From a virus (taxonomy: Duplodnaviria; Caudoviricetes), in the IMG/VR virus record IMGVR_UViG_3300027815_000009, positions 5,359 through 69,358 of that record: a stretch of DNA of 64,000 nt. One strand, written 5' to 3'. This document shows positions 28,367-44,335 of this stretch, in pieces. Each line of letters starts with the position of its first letter. Position 1 is the stretch's first letter. The position numbers were made by a program, and so were the translations under genes. The notes under the pieces are model-generated. The model searched no databases, was not told where the DNA came from, and was given only the letters and a program-made list of their open reading frames with translations.

Positions 28367-28634
28367 TTTCGGCTCCTTTCGGACGTGGTTTCTGCGCGCA
28401 TTCGGCGGCCTCCTGCGCTTCACGACGCGCAACGCGGAACGCCTCCCAGGCCTCGCGGTGCTCCGGGCAGACGTGCTTGTTCGGCCCGACCTGGGTTGCG
28501 TGGTCCGGGCAGATGGGGCGGTCGCAACGCTTCGGGTGCGGTGCGGCGCGGTCCCCGACGATCCAATCGCACCGGAACCCGCCGACGAGGTGGCAGGCGC
28601 GGCAGCGGTTCGAGTTTTCCCTGGCCGTGCTCAT
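28356..28634 (-). CDS. Small Cys-rich hypothetical protein
   Basis: CRAC..CDW..CDRPIC..H..CPEH. Confidence 0.5.
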   Translation of the reverse strand: MSTARENSNRCRACHLVGGFRCDWIVGDRAAPHPKRCDRPICPDHATQVGPNKHVCPEHREAWEAFRVARREAQEAAECAQKPRPKGAENVL

Positions 28635-31181: not shown

Positions 31182-31538
31182 TCAGTCCTGGCGCACATAG
31201 CAAGCCCCCGCGCATTCCCCATGCGCATCAAAGGCGGCGCCGGCCGTTTCAGCGGCCAATTCGGTGCCACAGCGCCTGCAACGCCACAGCGCAGGCCCGG
31301 TGCTGGCGAATTGTTCGGCGAGATCGTTGCGCCGGCGCTCCTCGACTTCGATGTATTTCTCGAGGAAGTGTTGTGCCTTGCGCAGATCTTCGATGCCGTT
31401 CTTCTTCCGCCAGCGCTCGACGTACTTCGTGATCTGCGCCTGGAAATAATCGAGACCGAGCCGCGCTACGCGATCCCAATGTTCTTCGCCGCCTGTTTTG
31501 TAATGGGATCCGGCAACCTGACGCTCGTTCGCGCTCAT
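31182..31538 (-). CDS. DUF3310-like protein
   Basis: QVAGSHYK...ITKYVERWRKKNGIEDLRKAQHFLEKYIE. Confidence 0.8.
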   Translation of the reverse strand: MSANERQVAGSHYKTGGEEHWDRVARLGLDYFQAQITKYVERWRKKNGIEDLRKAQHFLEKYIEVEERRRNDLAEQFASTGPALWRCRRCGTELAAETAGAAFDAHGECAGACYVRQD

Positions 31539-31768
31539 ACTTTCCTCCGCAAAAGATAAAGCCAAACCACCCCACACAGCGCGTTCATTGTTGCCGCCCA
31601 CCACAACGCCATCGTTGCCAACGTGGCCGCTTGCACCATCAACACCAGGCCCGTCATCCAACAGGTCGAGCGCGGCGGCTTTGAGGCCATGAGCGGCAGT
31701 GCTGGCAAGAGTGCCGCGATGAACAACGTCGGGGCCGCGGCCAACACGTAGTCTTGCCAACCGCTCAT
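31535..31768 (-). CDS. Small 3-TM membrane protein
   Basis: Hydrophobic helices; coupled overlaps. Confidence 0.5.
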   Translation of the reverse strand: MSGWQDYVLAAAPTLFIAALLPALPLMASKPPRSTCWMTGLVLMVQAATLATMALWWAATMNALCGVVWLYLLRRKV

Positions 31769-31971
31769 GCGGTTAACGCACGCAACACGCCCAACAGCGT
31801 ATCGCATTCTCCTGTCGCCGGCCGATGGCGCGCATCAAAGGCTTGGTAGAACTCACCATTCGGAAAATAGGTGACAGAGCACCCGCGCGCCTGGATTTCT
31901 GCACGAACCCTCGCGTTTTCATCCAGGACAAGCTGTAAGGCGGAGTCAGGACAGCCGTTGTAGCATCTCAT
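31765..31971 (-). CDS. Small hypothetical protein
   Basis: ORF in operon with ATGA overlap. Confidence 0.45.
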   Translation of the reverse strand: MRCYNGCPDSALQLVLDENARVRAEIQARGCSVTYFPNGEFYQAFDARHRPATGECDTLLGVLRALTA

Positions 31972-32007
31972 TTCTCACCCCCAATTACATCGCGATTTGT
32001 TTGGCGC

Positions 32008-32595
32008 TCATCCGAACACCACGTACTCCGTGTCCTCGACGGTGAGGTACATCTGATCGATTATGCTCATCAGTTCTCGCGCGCGGTCGCGCAGCGCCTG
32101 CGTCGAAGCCTGCCCCGAGCCAACCAGCTCCTTGAGGTATTCGCGGTAGCGTTGGTACACGCCGAGCAGCGCGTGATTCCCCATCCCGAAGACCTCGTGT
32201 GCCGAGAACATTGCGCCTTCGAGCCGATCGGCGAGCTTCAACGTCAGCACCTCCTCTTCCGTGAGTTCGGCCTCGTAATCTGGGATGCCTGAGGCGTTGC
32301 GCATCTGGTCCTCGAGGCGACCGAACACGCCTGGGGCGGCCGCATTGAGTAGGCGCTTGATCGGCGCCGGGAGATCGCTCACGATCGCCTCCGGGACATC
32401 GTGATGCGCCGCGGCCATCAGCAGCGCCGGGCTCGGGTGGCCTTCGGCGAGAAGCCAGCAAATCCACAACACCATGAAGCTATGCCGCCCAACGGTATCG
32501 GTCTGGTGCAGCGGCCGATTATGGTACCGCCGCACAAAGCTCGCTCGTCCGAGATAGGCGAGGACTTGCTGTGGATTCATCTGGCGAGGGGTCAT
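32008..32595 (-). CDS. HD-domain 5'-deoxynucleotidase (YfbR-like)
   Basis: VRRYH, TVGRHS, AAHHDVPEAIVSDLPAP.K, LKLADRLE. Confidence 0.85.
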   Translation of the reverse strand: MTPRQMNPQQVLAYLGRASFVRRYHNRPLHQTDTVGRHSFMVLWICWLLAEGHPSPALLMAAAHHDVPEAIVSDLPAPIKRLLNAAAPGVFGRLEDQMRNASGIPDYEAELTEEEVLTLKLADRLEGAMFSAHEVFGMGNHALLGVYQRYREYLKELVGSGQASTQALRDRARELMSIIDQMYLTVEDTEYVVFG

Positions 32596-33608
32596 GAGAC
32601 GGCCCGCACTCTGCGCCGCTCGATCCACTCCATCGCCGCGCGGCGCCAATCTTCCGCCATGCAATCTTGCAGCGGCGCCATGCCGTCTCCGCCGCCAGTT
32701 CGCCGCTCCTCCCAGCTGCGCCACATCGGTTCGACAACGTTCCGGAAAAAAGCCGTGTCCCCGACACCATGCAGCGAAGGACCGGGGCGTTCGCAGAACG
32801 CTTCGGCTTCGAAGATCAAGCGCCAAGGGTCTTCTCCAGGCGCCATCAACGGGTAATGCGCCGCGAAGCCGGCGGTGTAACGGTCATCGCATTGTGGCGT
32901 TTCCAGCATTTCCGCGATCCCAGGGAGCGCGCAGTACGCATGATAGTTCGAGGAGAACTGATACAGCCGCCCCACCCGAAGTCCTAGCGCGGCAGCCACC
33001 CATTCCTGCAATAGGCTGAAATGCACCGAATTCGCGCCGTAAGCACCCCAAACGATGTCATTTGAACGGCAGCAGACCGTCATGTTGAGGGCACCTTTCT
33101 CCACGGCGAAATAAGCGTGCGTGTTGCAGGGTATGTCCGGCATCGCGATCCCGCCGGCCCCTTCGCTCGTGACGAGGTCCCCGTTCGCTGACCACATCTC
33201 CAGCACTGCACGCCGGCTCGAGGGTTGTTCGCGTAGGTGGGCAACCAGAATATCGAGTTGGTCAACGCCAAACCACTCGCGCCAACGGAAACCGTAAGCG
33301 CCGTGGAGCACTTCGCCATCGTGGCTGAACTCGCGCATGCGTTTGTTGAATCGGGCCGGGAACGCTAGGTCGTTCTTCCCAGCGAGCATCCAAATCGCCT
33401 CCATCAGGTGGAAGTATGGATTGGCGTCGCGCTGCGCGCTGAACAGCACGCGCTCCATTGGACGCGAGTACTCGGTCAAGACTGGGCCGGGCGCAACTAG
33501 CACTGGGCCGTTGCGGCTGTCTTCCTTGTGGCCGGCTACTCGCAGCCAAGCCAGCCCTTCGGCAAGAGCTTGATTGACGTTGCGGACCTTCAATACGTGC
33601 GCGGTCAC
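32592..33608 (-). CDS. Thymidylate synthase-family enzyme, probable dUMP hydroxymethylase
   Basis: ANPYFHLMEAIWML, GAYGFRW, DIPCN, RSNDIVWGAYGAN (Asn implies dUMP specificity), SSNYHAY. Confidence 0.8.
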   Translation of the reverse strand: MTAHVLKVRNVNQALAEGLAWLRVAGHKEDSRNGPVLVAPGPVLTEYSRPMERVLFSAQRDANPYFHLMEAIWMLAGKNDLAFPARFNKRMREFSHDGEVLHGAYGFRWREWFGVDQLDILVAHLREQPSSRRAVLEMWSANGDLVTSEGAGGIAMPDIPCNTHAYFAVEKGALNMTVCCRSNDIVWGAYGANSVHFSLLQEWVAAALGLRVGRLYQFSSNYHAYCALPGIAEMLETPQCDDRYTAGFAAHYPLMAPGEDPWRLIFEAEAFCERPGPSLHGVGDTAFFRNVVEPMWRSWEERRTGGGDGMAPLQDCMAEDWRRAAMEWIERRRVRAVS

Positions 33609-34453
33609 GGTGCGTAATCTCCTTCGGTTGTGCGGTAGCGGCGGCGCGGCTTGCGCCCGCCGAGCTCTACCGCGCGGGCGTACTTGCTGAGCTCGCAGGC
33701 GACGTTTTGCCAGTCCTGCATGTGGAGCCTTTCGATGTGCGGCGGGAGTTCGACTTCTTCAGCCATGAGCCGGAGGCCCGCTTGGAACCAACCGCGACCT
33801 CGTATCGGCCGCTCGTCGATGTACCAGCGGACGCCGCGCTCACTTCCAGGCCCGGGCGCCGCAAATGACCACCAGTCCTGCGCCACAGACAACGGCGACC
33901 CGAGCGTGTTCTTCAGGTCAGCGACAATCTGCGCCGCCAAGAAGCTCCCAAGCCCGTCTATCTTGCAGAGTTCATTCCAGAAGTCCTCGAGCGTTTGCCC
34001 GGCGCGCGGTTGCAAGCGGCCTTGGTGTAGGGCATCCGCCACCCCGAGTACGTGATCGATTTTGGGGCACTTACGGCCGCAAGTGCTGATCATGTAGGCG
34101 CTGTTCCACAGCCGTTCTCCGCGGGCGGCGCGTTGCCGCAGCAAGAAGCCAACCCTGGTGCTGTCCCAAGTGACCGGGAATCCGATCTCCTCAAGGGTTG
34201 GCGGCCAATTGAAGAACCGCGCCAGCGCCATCGCGAGCGTCAGATTAGGGTGATCGCCATAAGGGGCGCGCCAATGCTTGGCGACCCATTGCGTGACGCG
34301 ATCGTCCTCGCGGCGGACATTGCAAAAGCGGTATGCCGCCATAATTGGGTCTTGTGTCCAAGGCGGCGGTCGCCCATCGGCGCGGCGAAGGCGGATCGCT
34401 TCCCGTTCCTTGACAAAATGCGTTACGAGTTGCGTGCGCCCCATCGGATTCAT
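33605..34453 (-). CDS. aGPT-Pplase1 / 5-hmdU DNA kinase helical-domain family protein
   Basis: ER..I...PPPWTQDPI..YRFCNVRREDDRVTQW, GLGSFLAAQIVADL, PGPGS.RG, CELSKY. Confidence 0.75.
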   Translation of the reverse strand: MNPMGRTQLVTHFVKEREAIRLRRADGRPPPWTQDPIMAAYRFCNVRREDDRVTQWVAKHWRAPYGDHPNLTLAMALARFFNWPPTLEEIGFPVTWDSTRVGFLLRQRAARGERLWNSAYMISTCGRKCPKIDHVLGVADALHQGRLQPRAGQTLEDFWNELCKIDGLGSFLAAQIVADLKNTLGSPLSVAQDWWSFAAPGPGSERGVRWYIDERPIRGRGWFQAGLRLMAEEVELPPHIERLHMQDWQNVACELSKYARAVELGGRKPRRRYRTTEGDYAP

Positions 34454-34480
34454 TTACCCTGCGTTGGTCGTTCGGTTTGC

Positions 34481-35302
34481 CTACAGAAGTTCCTGCTGCT
34501 CGATGCCCTTCGCGCGCAGTTGGCCTTCAAGGAAGGCCTGTTGCCAAGAGACGTGGACGTCCACCCGCTCGCCCCCACCCCAAGCGGTCTTCGTCTGTCG
34601 CTCGACCACTCGCACGTGCGGCCGGTGGCGCTCCGCCAACGCACGGGCTGCCTGCTCCTGCAACTCCGCCGTGCGGTACGATGAGCAGCCGCCCGGAGCA
34701 TTACTCGTGCCCTGCCCCTGTACCATATAGTTGATGATCAGGTTCGGATGGCCCTTGCGCAGCAACTGAAGCGTCATATCCATGTCTTCCATCAGAGGGA
34801 TTTGATCATAGCGGCAGCCAATCCCGCGGATGAGCTTCGGACGCAGGCCGTGGACGCGCGTCGCGCGCCCGACCTCTAAGTAGCGCCCCTCTTCACCTTT
34901 CCTGTTACCACCCTCGCGGGGCGTAACCGTTAGATGCAGGTACTTTTCCAGCTGCCACTCGATGTCCGCGAACAGCGCGTTGATGTCTGTTTCATTCGCG
35001 ACGATGAACTTTCCGACATCATCAGTACGCCGAGTGTCGAATCGCAGGTCGTCATCCAGCATCAGGAGCTTGTCGGCCTGCGTGCGCTCGAGCCACCACT
35101 GGCGGCGCTTGGCGATGCCAGTTACACCCTCTGGTGTCTCGGAGATGCCAGCCAGCGGGGCTACGTGCGGCCAGAGGCGCTCGTACGCTGGACCTTGGCC
35201 ATGCGGAACGACCAACGTAGTCCGCTTTGCGATCGCGGGCGGTAGTCTCCGTGGCGTGAGAGATCGCTCAGCACGCCCCGCCGAGAAGACCACGATCTCC
35301 AT
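34481..35302 (-). CDS. GREB1-like / TET-JBP-associated-type glycosyltransferase
   Basis: SAGRA, GIAKRRQW, LMLDDDL, MEDMDMTLQLL..G, NAPGGC. Confidence 0.75.
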   Translation of the reverse strand: MEIVVFSAGRAERSLTPRRLPPAIAKRTTLVVPHGQGPAYERLWPHVAPLAGISETPEGVTGIAKRRQWWLERTQADKLLMLDDDLRFDTRRTDDVGKFIVANETDINALFADIEWQLEKYLHLTVTPREGGNRKGEEGRYLEVGRATRVHGLRPKLIRGIGCRYDQIPLMEDMDMTLQLLRKGHPNLIINYMVQGQGTSNAPGGCSSYRTAELQEQAARALAERHRPHVRVVERQTKTAWGGGERVDVHVSWQQAFLEGQLRAKGIEQQELL

Positions 35303-35712
35303 CAGGCGGAAGTCGTGGCCTGCGGTTCCTCGATCTTGACGGACTTGTGCTTCATGTCCCATTTCAGGTCGCTGTAGCTGCCTCCCGCAGCGATGAAGTC
35401 CGAAACCGTCATGCCGTCACGGTAAAGTGCGTAGACCGCGTGCGCATTCGAACCAGAACGTTTCGGATTTTCTTTGACGAGGAGAGTGATCTTTGCCTCG
35501 GGGTCGAAAGCCGCGCGCGGCTTGGTCTCCTTCTTGGCCTTCTTCTTGTTCTCGCCACCTCTGAGTTTCTTCCGCAGTGCATCGGGCGACATCTTCCCGA
35601 TCTCGGCGACCGTGAAGACCTTGTCACCGATCGCCCAGGTCTTGATCTTGGTGTCGTAATGCGCCTGCACCCCTAAGTCGGCGGCGACGCGATGGATCGA
35701 TTCGCTCTTCAT
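35302..35712 (-). CDS. Basic DNA-binding-like hypothetical protein
   Basis: NPKRSGS.A...YALY.DGMTVSDFIAAGG...DL.WD motif. Confidence 0.55.
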   Translation of the reverse strand: MKSESIHRVAADLGVQAHYDTKIKTWAIGDKVFTVAEIGKMSPDALRKKLRGGENKKKAKKETKPRAAFDPEAKITLLVKENPKRSGSNAHAVYALYRDGMTVSDFIAAGGSYSDLKWDMKHKSVKIEEPQATTSA

Positions 35713-39807: not shown

Positions 39808-40956
39808 ATGACCGAACAGCTAGACGTTTCGCAGTCGATCCCGGAAGACGCCATGGAGACAACGATGGCGGCTCAGCCAAAACCGCCCTCCCCGGCGGAG
39901 ATCCCGATCAAGCACGATCGGGTCGTGGACACCACGCCGGGCGACATCGCAGCCGCCGTGGCGGCTGGCGAATGGGTTCCGACGCTGATCAAAGACGAGG
40001 AGTACGACCGCGCGCGGTGGATCGGGTCATCGAACGCCGCGGCCCTGATGGGCGTTTCCCCGGAATTCGACGGCGAGCGGGAGACGCCGCTCACGGTCTG
40101 GCGGAGGAAGGTCGGATTCGAAGCCGATGAGCTCAGCTCGGACAAGAAACTCTTCCTCGAGCGCCGCAAGCGCTGGGAGCCGGTCGTGGTCCAGATGCTC
40201 CGCGAGGAGATGGACGCGGAGATCGTTTCCGTCAACCTCCGGTACCAGGACCCACACCTGCCGTTCCTCGCGGCCGAAATCGACTTCGAATGGAAAGACC
40301 CGGAGACTGGGTTCATAGAAGGCGGCGAGATCAAGACGGTCTCCCCGTTCGCGTTCAAGGATAAGTTCGGGTGGGGTGAACCGGGGACCGTGGACGTGCC
40401 GATCCACTACTTCTTCCAGATGATGCACGGCATGATGGTGAAAGGGTTCAGGAAGTCCGTTCTGGCCGCGATGGTCGGAATAGATTCGATGCACTTCTAC
40501 CCGATCGCGCGCAACGAGGAGATGATCGCCGACATGCGCCGGGCGTACCTCCGTTTCTGGAATGACAACGTGTGCGCCGGCGTTGCCCCGGACCCGATGT
40601 CGATGGGCGACCTGCGGGCGATGTTCAAATCCTCCACCCCCGGGCTTACCGTTGCCGGGGACAGCATCGTCGGGTCGAAAGCCCTGAAGCTGCGGGCGCT
40701 TCACAGTCAGATCGACGCCCTTCAGATGGAGGGTCTGTCGCTCGAGTTTGACATAAAGCTGGCGATGAAGGATGCCGAGAAGCTGACCGTGGACGGGCGC
40801 GACGTGTTCTCGTGGAAGGAACAGAACGCCGGATCGCGCCTCGACGTGACGGCGCTCAAGGCTTCGAAGGACAAGATCGAGAAGGCGATTTACCTGAAAT
40901 ACCTCAAGGACTACGGCAGGCGCCGGGTCTTCAAGGCGATGTACGGCGGCACCTGA
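39808..40956 (+). CDS. YqaJ-like viral recombination exonuclease
   Basis: IGSSNAAALMG, TPLTVWRRK, FLAAEID, GEIKT, YFFQMMHGM. Confidence 0.85.
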   Translation: MTEQLDVSQSIPEDAMETTMAAQPKPPSPAEIPIKHDRVVDTTPGDIAAAVAAGEWVPTLIKDEEYDRARWIGSSNAAALMGVSPEFDGERETPLTVWRRKVGFEADELSSDKKLFLERRKRWEPVVVQMLREEMDAEIVSVNLRYQDPHLPFLAAEIDFEWKDPETGFIEGGEIKTVSPFAFKDKFGWGEPGTVDVPIHYFFQMMHGMMVKGFRKSVLAAMVGIDSMHFYPIARNEEMIADMRRAYLRFWNDNVCAGVAPDPMSMGDLRAMFKSSTPGLTVAGDSIVGSKALKLRALHSQIDALQMEGLSLEFDIKLAMKDAEKLTVDGRDVFSWKEQNAGSRLDVTALKASKDKIEKAIYLKYLKDYGRRRVFKAMYGGT

Positions 40957-42149: not shown

Positions 42150-42566
42150 GTGGCCTGGACCCGCAGGTGGCGCATCGATTCCCGGCGGCGGCTCATCGCC
42201 ATCGCGGGGTTGATCTCGCACACGCTCGTGAGCGAGGGTGCGCCACTCGAGCTGATCCTGCGGACCGAACGGAAGGAGAAATCGCACGAGCAGCGGAAGC
42301 TGTTCCATGCCGTCTGCGCCGACATCGCACCGCATTGGGGTTTAACGCCGGCCGGGGTGAAGTTGAAGGTAAAGGCTGATTTTTACGGCGTAGATATAAA
42401 GTTGGAAGGTGAAACTTATTACGCGGTTGTTCAGAGCAGCGAGGACAGTGATCGCGCAGAATACGCTCGACTTATTGATCACGCATATCAGTTGGCTGCC
42501 GAAAGCGGGCACCATATCCAGGACAGGAGACCTACTTTCATAGATCGAGGCGAGGTTCGGCGATGA
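42150..42566 (+). CDS. NinB/Orf-like recombination accessory protein
   Basis: KSHEQRKLFHA.C.DIA..W, SS......YARLIDH. Confidence 0.6.
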   Translation: MAWTRRWRIDSRRRLIAIAGLISHTLVSEGAPLELILRTERKEKSHEQRKLFHAVCADIAPHWGLTPAGVKLKVKADFYGVDIKLEGETYYAVVQSSEDSDRAEYARLIDHAYQLAAESGHHIQDRRPTFIDRGEVRR

Positions 42567-42638
42567 CGGGCGAGGCGAGGCTAGGCTTAGCCAGGCTAGG
42601 TAAGGCATGGCAAGGCTTGGCACGGCAGGGCATGGCAT
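42549..42638 (+). repeat. GGY-NN pentamer array (18 units), candidate guide ncRNA
   Basis: GGC GA GGT TC GGC GA TGA CG GGC GA GGC GA GGC TA GGC TT AGC CA GGC TA GGT AA GGC AT GGC AA GGC TT GGC AC GGC AG GGC AT GGC AT; 16 of 18 units GGY in unbroken 5-nt phase. Confidence 0.9.
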
Positions 42639-42661
42639 CCGTAGTTTAACTAAGGAAAGAC

Positions 42662-43231
42662 ATGAAAACGATTCAAGTGGAAATTCGAGGTGTCACGGCG
42701 CTTTTAATCCATCGATTTCACGAAGAGGCGGAGGCCTCGAGGAAGACGAGAAGGATCGAGGTAAAGCAGCGCGATCCGCGCGAAGAGGCAACGAAAAACG
42801 CCTACATCGCTAAGGATGGAACATACTACTTCTCCGCGTTCGCAATTCCAAACGCGATGGGTAATGCCGGGTCTAGTCATAAATCAACAGGCAGCAGAAA
42901 AACGTTGCGCTACGTGGTCCCGTCAGCAGTTCGCATGAAAGCCGATACGGTCACGATCTTGAATGGCGACGGGCCGGCCAAGAGTTTCGAAGTCGATTCT
43001 AGGCCGGTAACCATTCCGGCCACTAAGGGCAGGGTGATGCGCCATCGCCCGAGATTCGACCAATGGAGCGCGCGATTCGAAATGACCATTGACGACGATC
43101 TTCTTTCTGTAGAGATGGCGCAAAAACTACTGGAGGAAGCGGGCCACAGCATCGGCATCGGCGACTTCAGGCCAGAGAAGCGGGGGCCGTTCGGTACATT
43201 TCGAGTAACGCAGTTCAAGGATGTAATGTAA
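42662..43231 (+). CDS. Stand-alone RAMP/Cas7-like (RRM-fold) protein
   Basis: N-terminal VEIRGVTALLIH strand, YFSAFAIPNAM, and C-terminal Gly-rich loop LLEEAGHSIGIGDFRPEKRGPFGTF, as in Csm3/Cas7-type RAMPs; TAAGGA SD. Confidence 0.65.
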   Translation: MKTIQVEIRGVTALLIHRFHEEAEASRKTRRIEVKQRDPREEATKNAYIAKDGTYYFSAFAIPNAMGNAGSSHKSTGSRKTLRYVVPSAVRMKADTVTILNGDGPAKSFEVDSRPVTIPATKGRVMRHRPRFDQWSARFEMTIDDDLLSVEMAQKLLEEAGHSIGIGDFRPEKRGPFGTFRVTQFKDVM

Positions 43232-43294
43232 ATAAGGTTTCGACATCCCGGACAGGCGTCCGAGGTGAACTGAATTTTTCAAGGAGAACGTGAA

Positions 43295-43511: not shown

Positions 43512-44030
43512 ATGGACCTCAAGTTCACGAACCAGCGGATGCTCCTCGCGAGCGTCAACGCGAGGGCCGAAGTCCACGGCGAAGAACGCGAACCGGCGGG
43601 CGACGTTGGGCTTGACGCGAATCTGCCTAACGACGTCCTGAACGTCTTCCACCCAATGCTCAAGGGGCTGCTCTATCACTTCGACAAAGGGCGCGAGCGC
43701 GACCTCGCCGACCAGGGCCGCGCGCACGAGGCCGGGTTCGCCCCGGACCTGCGCCTCCCGAAGCTCGGCCTTCCGCTGAAGTGGGCAGACGAGATCGTGA
43801 ACGCGAAGGTCGCGATCCGCGTCCCGGGCGAAACCAAGGAGGTCGTTCTCCAGCCAGTGAAGGTGAACGATTTCAAGCTCACGCCGCTCGACGGCGGAAC
43901 GGTGGAGTTCCACATGCGCGTTCAATACCATCCCGAAGAACGCCAAGCGGGGAAATTGGCGATGCTGGTCCAGCAGGAAGTCGAGGTATCGCTCGAGCTG
44001 GTTGAAGAGGCGCAGACGGAAACCACGTGA
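43512..44030 (+). CDS. Conserved phage hypothetical protein
   Basis: VNARAE.HGEE..PAGD, F.LTPLDGGTV, LAMLVQQEVEVSL. Confidence 0.55.
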   Translation: MDLKFTNQRMLLASVNARAEVHGEEREPAGDVGLDANLPNDVLNVFHPMLKGLLYHFDKGRERDLADQGRAHEAGFAPDLRLPKLGLPLKWADEIVNAKVAIRVPGETKEVVLQPVKVNDFKLTPLDGGTVEFHMRVQYHPEERQAGKLAMLVQQEVEVSLELVEEAQTETT

Positions 44031-44335
44031 GCAAAGTCACAAAAAGTGCGCGCGGCGAGCAGTGCCAGATAAGGATTCCGCACGTCTGCAGGGCGCCGGT
44101 CACGGAAACGGTCGTCTGGTGCCACGCGAACGGTTCGGCCGCCGGCAAGGGGATCGGGATGAAGTCCATGGACCTCCTCGGCGCCTATGGCTGCCAGGGG
44201 TGTCACGACGTCTACGATCGCCGAGTAAACCTCCCGCCTGGGATGTGCCGCGAGGACGTCGAACTGGCGTTTTGGGAGGGGCACGCGCGGAGCCTCGTGA
44301 TGCTGGTGAAAAAAGGTCTGGTGAAGAATGGGTGA
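44027..44335 (+). CDS. DUF1364-family putative nuclease
   Basis: SARGEQCQIRIP.VC...ETVV.CH...GKG.GMK..DL.GAYGC..CHD..D.R. Confidence 0.8.
   Translation: MSKVTKSARGEQCQIRIPHVCRAPVTETVVWCHANGSAAGKGIGMKSMDLLGAYGCQGCHDVYDRRVNLPPGMCREDVELAFWEGHARSLVMLVKKGLVKNG

What the first reader, a model, noticed from the sequence alone, without database searches (positions are those of the whole stretch)
42549..43231. Stand-alone RAMP/Cas7-like gene with an upstream GGY-NN pentamer array: candidate phage RNA-guided system with a non-contiguous guide
Seen: from 42549 to 42638 the sequence keeps an unbroken 5-nt phase of constant GGY plus a variable dinucleotide (16 of 18 units perfect; exceptions TGA and AGC). 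The dinucleotides read GA TC GA CG GA GA TA TT CA TA AA AT AA TT AC AG AT AT. The 13 between 42572 and 42633 are 21/26 A/T in a visibly GC-rich genome, so they look like information rather than microsatellite decay. A 189-aa protein starts 23 nt after the array; it has RAMP-like features (N-terminal beta strand, IPNAM segment, C-terminal G-rich loop AGHSIGIGDFRPEKRGPFG). No cas genes or CRISPR array are nearby. Established: Cas7-type RAMPs polymerise along guide RNA with a fixed nucleotide period. Inference: the array is transcribed, each GGY binds one subunit, and the NN pairs together spell a gapped, AT-rich target (a promoter or a rival phage), giving nuclease-free repression or anti-phage competition. 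From memory this matches the recently reported 'VIPR' architecture (RAMP protein + GGY/NN RNA); I cannot verify that here, so novelty must be checked.
Basis: partly seen in the sequence, partly recalled or inferred. Interest (0 to 1): 0.95.

Follow-up and report, generated by a model that had tools for sequence, protein, structure and literature searches.

The report
Phage VIPR cassette: Vipr plus guide
This is a genuine example of the VIPR system described in 2026 preprints: a small Cas7-like protein gene preceded by one guide RNA built from five-base GGY-NN repeats, inserted as a 0.7-kb cassette into an uncultured phage, so it is real but a new member of a known kind.

Summary

- **Protein.** ORF 42662-43231 is a full-length homologue of the experimentally characterised SUSP1 Vipr protein (PDB 36pp; family profile E 1.2e-21). 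Its predicted fold is Csm3/Cmr4-like (Z about 12). The GGY-contacting residues are kept.
- **Array.** The pentamer array at 42549-42638 is the only one of its kind in the window.
- **Relatives.** 82 of 83 homologue loci carry GGY-NN arrays next to the gene. Loci with 100% identical Vipr differ in guide number and NN content.

New for this locus:

- It is a minimal, vap-less, single-guide cassette of about 0.71 kb, inserted in the 3' end of a NinB-like gene.
- Three syntenic phages lack the cassette, and a remnant of the old NinB C-terminus lies just after vipr.
- Guides of this clade end in fixed terminal units (GGCAW or GGTTT) rather than in a long structured tail.

No convincing natural target was found under the published 1-nt-skip rule. 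The best site matches 29 of 36 positions and is not significant.

VIPR is already described in four preprints. This scan has noted it 195 times in at least 159 other genomes. Interest is low to moderate.

The parts
42150..42566 (+). NinB/Orf-like recombination mediator gene (context). Its last 18 nt read into the first array units, and its stop codon lies inside degenerate unit 4.
   Evidence: PHROG 72 E 3.8e-12. C-terminus ...IQDRRPTFIDRGEVRR* compared with ...DRRPTNV* and ...DRRMR* in syntenic phages.
42533..43244 (+). Inferred inserted VIPR cassette of about 0.71 kb: short leader, array, ribosome-binding site and vipr. The edges are approximate, to within a few bases.
   Evidence: Syntenic contigs L302-L304 have RecE-like, p443, NinB, p71 and p172 but no vipr and no array. 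Junction alignment.
42549..42638 (+). vrRNA gene: 18 GGY-NN pentamers. The mature guide is probably units 5-18 (42569-42638). The last 2-3 units (CAG CAT CAT) are probably the fixed 3' terminal units of this clade.
   Evidence: Terminal-unit pattern in relatives.
42639..42661 (+). 23-nt spacer with a Shine-Dalgarno-like AAGGAAAG (42652-42659). No room for a long structured 3' tail before the start codon.
   Evidence: Fold of 42540-42720 has z -1.89, not significant. No Rfam family.
42662..43231 (+). vipr gene: 189-aa minimal RAMP with RRM core, thumb and G-loop.
   Evidence: phmmer against PDB 36pp_D 'SUSP1 Vipr protein', E 5.2e-7. Family profile E 1.2e-21 over residues 1-181. AF2 pLDDT 93.9. 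Foldseek top hits are Csm3, prob 1.0. VIA Z 11.9/11.8/11.7 to Cmr4/Csm3. PHROG 4652 E 1.4e-21.
43245..43268 (+). Remnant of the ancestral NinB C-terminus (reads IPDRRPR*). It partly duplicates 42516-42532 and marks the right edge of the cassette.
   Evidence: it aligns with the NinB end, intergenic region and next start codon of L304.

Best explanation
The locus is a VIPR system in its smallest form: one vrRNA gene (GGY-NN pentamers, 42549-42638) directly upstream of a vipr gene (42662-43231), carried by an uncultured tailed phage.

By homology with the characterised SUSP1 system, the array would be transcribed, probably together with vipr from the early rightward operon. One Vipr protomer would bind per pentamer. 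Each GGY would be held by H17, R129, D168, F169 and R170 of neighbouring protomers. The exposed NN dinucleotides would pair with double-stranded DNA that carries the same dinucleotides separated by one skipped base. This gives nuclease-free transcriptional silencing of a competing mobile element.

What is shown here: the array, the fold, homology to SUSP1 Vipr, conservation of the contact residues, co-occurrence of array and gene across relatives, NN hypervariability, the phage context, and the insertion of the cassette. What is inferred: transcription, filament assembly, the 1-nt-skip rule in this clade, and the target.
For: - **Sequence homology** to the SUSP1 Vipr protein, whose structure is solved.
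- **Fold:** confident model with a Csm3/Cmr4-like fold; all of the first 28 VIA rows are CRISPR RAMPs.
- **Contact residues:** SUSP1 H17/R138/D177/W178/R179 (paper .720927) align to H17/R129/D168/F169/R170. R129 and R170 are invariant in 50 family members.
- **Array:** unique in the window.
- **Relatives:** 82 of 83 homologue loci have in-phase GGY-NN arrays beside the gene, all but one on the same strand. NN vary while GGY is kept. Loci with 100% identical Vipr differ in guide number and content.
- **Phage context:** major head protein, protease, portal and large terminase are present.
- **No self-target:** the window's best match at 1-nt skip is 20/36, as the paper reports for natural systems.
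- **Self-contained module:** the cassette is absent from three syntenic phages.
Against: - No natural target was found. Exact seeds in IMG/VR and JGI metagenomes gave only one site at or above 80% NN (L087, 29/36). That site lies in a 44% GC contig, has the skipped base on codon position 2, and has about a 0.1 chance of arising at random.
- There was no hit in 401 genomes of one candidate host order.
- There is no vap gene and no long conserved 3' tail or pseudoknot, both of which the type II exemplar has.
- No sigma-70-like promoter lies directly upstream on the + strand.
- A13 replaces a proline that is at least 90% conserved.
- Expression and RNP formation are untested.
Confidence: 0.9

Rival explanations
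1. The cassette is a real VIPR module, but its single guide is an orphan or decayed guide with no current target. This would explain the unusual AT-richness and the two degenerate units, and would make the system idle in this phage.
For: No target was found in any collection. The last 13 NN are 22/26 A/T, and only 5 of 768 comparable 13-unit stretches in relatives reach 21/26. Two of 18 units are degenerate.
Against: The vipr ORF is intact with all contact residues. 16 of 18 GGY are kept. Degenerate NGC units are common in relatives' arrays and are noted in the paper. The databases searched probably lack the host's resident elements. AT-rich NN are what codon positions 1-2 can look like in a GC-rich gene.
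Confidence: 0.07
2. The pentamer tract is only a cis element: a 5'-UTR translational operator for vipr, or a DNA-level repeat such as an iteron or microsatellite. It would not be a trans-acting guide.
For: The tract ends 23 nt before the start codon, so bound protein could occlude the ribosome-binding site. No separate promoter or terminator was found.
Against: In relatives the same arrays also lie downstream of vipr, in strings of up to 13 runs of units, which a 5'-UTR operator cannot explain. NN turn over between identical proteins. In SUSP1 such RNAs co-purify with Vipr and direct DNA binding (paper). The two roles are not exclusive.
Confidence: 0.02
3. The gene is a stray Cas7/Csm3 left over from a degraded CRISPR-Cas locus, and the repeat is unrelated.
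For: The top structural matches are Csm3/Cmr4.
Against: Sequence identity to Cas7 chains is only 7-17%. No repeat of CRISPR-like period was reported in the window, and none of the neighbouring ORFs scanned matched a cas family. Direct sequence homology is to Vipr, not to any Cas family. The protein has a single RRM and 189 aa, like Vipr.
Confidence: 0.01

Closest known systems
Type II VIPR system of Escherichia phage SUSP1 (Vipr + vap1 + four vrRNAs; PDB 36pp; bioRxiv 10.64898/2026.04.26.720920 and .720927)
   Same: Homologous Vipr protein: about 25% identity over 96% of its length to Felix-O1-like phage copies, profile E 1.2e-21. Same GGY-NN pentamer RNA gene beside the gene, same strand, phage-borne. 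Same GGY-contact residues. No self-target.
   Different: Only one guide, upstream, abutting the ribosome-binding site. No vap gene. No room for the pseudoknotted 3' tail. Guides of this clade end in repeated fixed units (GGCAW or GGTTT) instead. The carrier is a GC-rich environmental phage with no cultured relative.
VIPR variants with staggered arrays, or with a single vrRNA (same paper, section 9 and fig. S18 legend)
   Same: Relatives L040-L059 show back-to-back guides joined by a short TAC[AG]Y junction. The window has the single-guide form.
   Different: The type of this clade (I-VII) could not be determined because the paper's supplementary tables are not held.
Cas7-family RAMPs of class 1 CRISPR effectors (Csm3, Cmr4)
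   Same: RRM core, thumb and G-loop; one subunit per fixed RNA period. Z 11.7-11.9 with 145-157 aligned residues.
   Different: 5-nt rather than 6-nt period. Gapped dinucleotide pairing to dsDNA. No cas partners, no CRISPR array, no adaptation genes. No sequence-level family match.

Membership tests
VIPR (Vipr + vrRNA) | Vipr protein: minimal single-RRM RAMP with thumb and glycine-rich loop, homologous to described Vipr proteins | tested here: met
   (PDB 36pp_D SUSP1 Vipr, E 5.2e-7 single sequence, 1.2e-21 profile, full length). for the fold.
VIPR (Vipr + vrRNA) | Residues that hold G1, G2 and Y3 of each repeat (SUSP1 H17, R138, D177, W178, R179) | tested here: met
   By alignment: H17, R129, D168, F169 (aromatic kept), R170. 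R129 and R170 are invariant in 50 relatives. The helix-1 steric residues E71/M72 are not conserved in identity (F60/A61).
VIPR (Vipr + vrRNA) | Adjacent tandem YNNGG / GGY-NN repeats (paper: 9-16 units; at least 4 for calling) | tested here: met
   18 units, 16 of them canonical, 23 nt upstream of vipr on the same strand.
VIPR (Vipr + vrRNA) | GGY conserved and NN hypervariable among related loci | tested here: met
   82 of 83 loci have arrays. NN differ in every upstream array shown. Loci with identical Vipr have different guide sets.
VIPR (Vipr + vrRNA) | Invariable structured 3' tail after the repeat tract (a pseudoknot in the SUSP1 clade) | tested here: not met
   Only 23 nt lie before the ATG. 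The fold is not significant and there is no Rfam hit. Instead the terminal units are fixed. The paper describes variable architectures across types, so this counts against type II membership, not against VIPR.
VIPR (Vipr + vrRNA) | Accessory vap gene next to vipr (described as typical, not universal) | tested here: not met
   The neighbours have no homologues beside vipr in 85 loci. The downstream p71 and p172 are backbone genes, present in syntenic phages that lack vipr.
VIPR (Vipr + vrRNA) | Viral or proviral context without cas genes or a CRISPR array | tested here: met
   Head, protease, portal and TerL genes are present. The neighbours are nin-region and recombination genes. No repeat of CRISPR-like period was reported.
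VIPR (Vipr + vrRNA) | Natural target matching the NN string with one skipped base (at least 80% NN), and none in the element's own genome | tested here: inconclusive
   No self-target. One external site reaches 29/36 but is not significant. All other searches were negative.
VIPR (Vipr + vrRNA) | vrRNA expressed, and co-purifying with Vipr as a filament | not testable with these tools
   Needs small-RNA sequencing and a pull-down.
Class 1 CRISPR-Cas effector (Cas7/Csm3) | Cas7 encoded with other cas genes and a CRISPR array, with a 6-nt periodic crRNA | tested here: not met
   No Pfam Cas family match. No repeat of CRISPR-like period. The RNA period is 5 nt. Only the fold is shared.

The most novel reading that the evidence does not exclude
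This clade may be a distinct VIPR architecture with three features.

1. The guide lies in the 5' leader of the vipr mRNA, so filament assembly would also throttle vipr translation.
2. The structured tail is replaced by two or three fixed terminal pentamers.
3. The 0.7-kb guide-plus-gene unit moves on its own between phage recombination/nin regions.

In this phage the exceptionally A/T-rich guide would read codon positions 1-2 of a GC-rich rival's gene. The phage's own thymidine hypermodification would shield it from reciprocal VIPR attack.
Probability: 0.12. Interest if true: 0.5.

Novelty: new member of a known kind. Interest (0 to 1): 0.25.

Why it matters
It adds a well-delimited natural example of the smallest VIPR unit: one guide plus one protein, about 0.7 kb, with no accessory gene. 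The insertion junctions are visible, which is useful for defining what is sufficient for function and how these modules spread. The fixed terminal pentamers give a practical rule for splitting long arrays of this clade into individual guides. It does not change the picture of VIPR established by the 2026 preprints.

Tried and rejected
- **Pfam** on Vipr and its neighbours found nothing for Vipr.
- **Nucleotide similarity to isolate phages:** none. No whole genome is held for the window.
- **Rfam:** no hammerhead or other family in the window region or in nine relatives' arrays.
- **Promoter/terminator scan:** nothing on the + strand near the array.
- **RNA fold of the array plus the 5' coding region:** not significant.
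- **Skip-rule test in this clade:** 151 guide arrays from relatives were scanned against the window plus 85 loci at skip 0-3. There was no excess at skip 1. The database of about 0.65 Mb is too small to be informative.
- **Target seeds in IMG/VR:** 10-unit exact (0 hits); 8-unit (over 120 hits, capped); three 9-unit seeds (16, 7 and 35 hits); two 7-unit halves with S at the skipped base (2 and 34 hits).
- **Target seeds in JGI metagenomes:** 12-unit (0 hits) and 10-unit (16 hits, from contigs of 26-45% GC).
- **Genome search:** 401 genomes of the order that holds one Vipr-bearing Hyphomicrobium MAG, up to 3 mismatches: 0 hits.
- **L087 site (29/36):** kept only as a weak candidate.
- **The repeat finder:** did not report the short NinB duplication because its longest exact stretch is 7 nt. 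That inference rests.
- **Paper supplements:** not held, so no type could be assigned.

Full report
**Observation.** The sequence at 42549-42638 is 18 pentamers in one phase:

ggcga ggttc ggcga tgacg ggcga ggcga ggcta ggctt agcca ggcta ggtaa ggcat ggcaa ggctt ggcac ggcag ggcat ggcat

- Sixteen units begin with GGY.
- A scan of both strands of the window for GGY in a 5-nt phase finds this as the only place with 6 or more of 8. One other place has 5 of 8; everything else has 4 or fewer.
- Tandem Repeats Finder reports period 5/10/15 at the same spot.
- The 189-aa ORF starts 23 nt downstream, after an AAGGAAAG ribosome-binding site.

- The VIPR paper (bioRxiv 10.64898/2026.04.26.720920) describes Vipr, a minimal RAMP, and vrRNAs of 9-16 YNNGG repeats. 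The NN dinucleotides pair with dsDNA while skipping one base per unit. This gives programmable transcriptional repression used in conflicts between phages.
- A structural companion (.720927) shows one protomer per repeat and names the GGY contacts: H17, R138, D177, W178 and R179.
- A third preprint (10.64898/2026.10.15.759431) shows that the skip matches codon periodicity, and describes solo guides.
- A fourth (10.64898/2026.10.21.760802) recovers 99 VIPR-like clusters.

**The protein is a Vipr.**

- Pfam has no match. PHROG 4652, of unknown function, matches at 1.4e-21.
- phmmer against PDB sequences hits chain 36pp_D, named 'SUSP1 Vipr protein', at E 5.2e-7 over the thumb and G-loop.
- A profile of 50 diverse relatives matches that chain from residue 1 to 188 at E 1.2e-21.
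- From these alignments, SUSP1 H17/R138/D177/W178/R179 correspond to H17/R129/D168/F169/R170 here. R129, R170 and the G-loop glycines are invariant in the family.
- The AlphaFold model is confident (pLDDT 93.9, pTM 0.87).
- Foldseek puts Csm3 chains first at probability 1.0.
- The Foldseek-independent search gives Z 11.9, 11.8 and 11.7 for Cmr4/Csm3, and all of the first 28 rows are CRISPR RAMPs.
- The family is large: 3132 cluster representatives at E of 0.001 or better.
- Among isolate phages the nearest copies are 30% identical or less, and include the Felix-O1-like SUSP1 clade.

**Relatives carry guides.**

- Of 83 homologue loci from IMG/VR and GTDB genomes that include the start of the gene, 82 have in-phase GGY-NN arrays immediately upstream and/or downstream of the gene. 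All but one array set is on the same strand.
- Upstream arrays run right up to the ribosome-binding site, as they do here. GGY is kept while NN differ.
- Five loci (L048, L049, L050, L051, L054) with 100% identical Vipr differ in the number, order and NN content of their guides.

**A punctuation rule emerged from these arrays.**

- Each guide ends in two or three fixed units that are specific to the sub-clade: GGCAA GGCA[AT] in L048-L059 and L011, and GGTTT GGTTT in L021, L026 and L032.
- The last two NN are identical in 21% of arrays, against 7.5% for internal neighbouring units.
- The window's array ends CAG CAT CAT, so its last units are probably this terminal signature rather than guide.
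- There is no room for a SUSP1-like pseudoknot tail, and no significant fold or Rfam family.

**Context and mobility.**

- The window is a tailed phage: major head protein, protease, portal and large terminase are present.
- vipr lies in a + strand early block: RecE-like exonuclease, a 443-aa protein, a NinB/Orf-like gene, [array and vipr], a 71-aa and a 172-aa protein, then a YbcO nuclease.
- None of these neighbours accompanies vipr in the 85 related loci. In those loci the cassette often sits beside YqaJ or RecT recombination genes.
- Three contigs found through homologues of the 172-aa protein share the RecE-like, p443, NinB, p71 and p172 backbone but have neither vipr nor an array.
- In the window, NinB reads on into the array (...IQDRRPTF-IDRGEVRR*, with the stop inside unit 4).
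- Just after vipr, 43245-43268 reads IPDRRPR*. This piece and the following intergenic region align with the NinB end and next start codon of L304.
- I infer that a module of about 0.71 kb (about 42533-43244) was inserted into the NinB 3' end. The 71-aa and 172-aa proteins are therefore backbone genes, not a vap.
- A second contig from JGI sample 3300000574 is the same phage at 99.98% identity, with an identical array.

**Target.** The published query form replaces each GGY with one wildcard. The results with it were as follows.

- The window has no self-match. Its best score is 20/36, no better than at skip 0, 2 or 3.
- The IMG/VR and JGI metagenome seeds, listed under Tried and rejected, were run (IMG/VR; metagenomes).
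- Scoring every fetched locus over all 18 units left one site at or above 80%: L087 5980-6033, at 29/36.
- That site lies inside a 342-aa ORF with no known family, in a contig of 44% GC, and the skipped base falls on codon position 2.
- Given the seed, 13 of the other 20 positions match. That has p of about 5e-4 per hit, against at least 120 hits and several seeds. I treat it as chance-level.
- A 12-unit pattern with up to 3 mismatches found nothing in 401 genomes of the order containing a Vipr-bearing Hyphomicrobium MAG. The backwards control also found nothing.

The guide is unusually A/T-rich. Its last 13 NN are 22/26 A/T, and only 5 of 768 comparable stretches in relatives reach 21/26. Part of that richness is the terminal signature. 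If the skipped base is the wobble position, the remainder is compatible with codon positions 1-2 of a GC-rich gene. In that reading, units 5-16 would spell [DE][DE]Y[FL][HQ]Y[KN][IM][KN][FL]T[SR].

**Mechanism and verdict.**

- I commit, at 0.9, to the reading that this is a working VIPR module acting as in SUSP1. The array RNA is coated by Vipr, GGY is sequestered, and NN are displayed. dsDNA with a 1-nt-gapped match is bound and silenced without cleavage. The target is most likely a gene of a rival phage, prophage or satellite in the same unknown host.
- The nearest large terminases among isolates belong to Rhizobium phages, at 50% identity.
- Transcription, assembly, the skip rule in this clade and the target are inferred.
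- The system is not novel as a kind. This scan has already recorded it 195 times in at least 159 genomes, including a look-alike protein.
- The features specific to this locus are the single leader-embedded guide, the lack of a vap, the visible insertion scar and the terminal-unit rule.

Noticed in passing
window 31182-35362 (- strand): An operon with a thymidylate-synthase-like enzyme, a 5-hmdU DNA kinase helical domain (E 4.5e-38), a TET-associated glycosyltransferase, a YfbR-like nucleotidase and DUF3310. The phage probably hypermodifies its thymidines, which could affect R-loop formation by VIPR or CRISPR effectors on its own DNA.
   Followed up: partly
L048, L049, L050, L051, L054 (upstream of vipr): Loci with 100% identical Vipr carry different sets of back-to-back guides joined by a TAC[AG]Y junction, and each guide ends in GGCAA GGCA[AT]. 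This is a natural series showing guide gain, loss and reshuffling.
   Followed up: partly
L012 4662-5270; L041 2756-3481; window 39808-40956 and 42150-42566: VIPR cassettes of this clade repeatedly sit in phage recombination modules (YqaJ-like exonuclease, RecT, RecE-like, NinB), without any one gene being a constant partner.
   Followed up: partly
L003 3458-3947: A run of 98 pentamers in a single phase with no visible spacer, so guide boundaries must be set by something other than phase breaks.
   Followed up: no
L017 2238-2307 and L019 2241-2310 (- strand): An int-alpA sRNA (Rfam RF02996, just above gathering score) lies about 1.7 kb upstream of vipr in two related viral contigs.
   Followed up: no
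window 44027-44335: A YbcO-family putative nuclease (Pfam E 4.8e-21) three genes downstream of vipr. It is typical of lambdoid nin regions and is not linked to vipr in relatives.
   Followed up: no
window 28515-28559: The only other place with 5 of 8 in-phase GGY. It lies in GC-rich coding DNA and is most likely chance.
   Followed up: no
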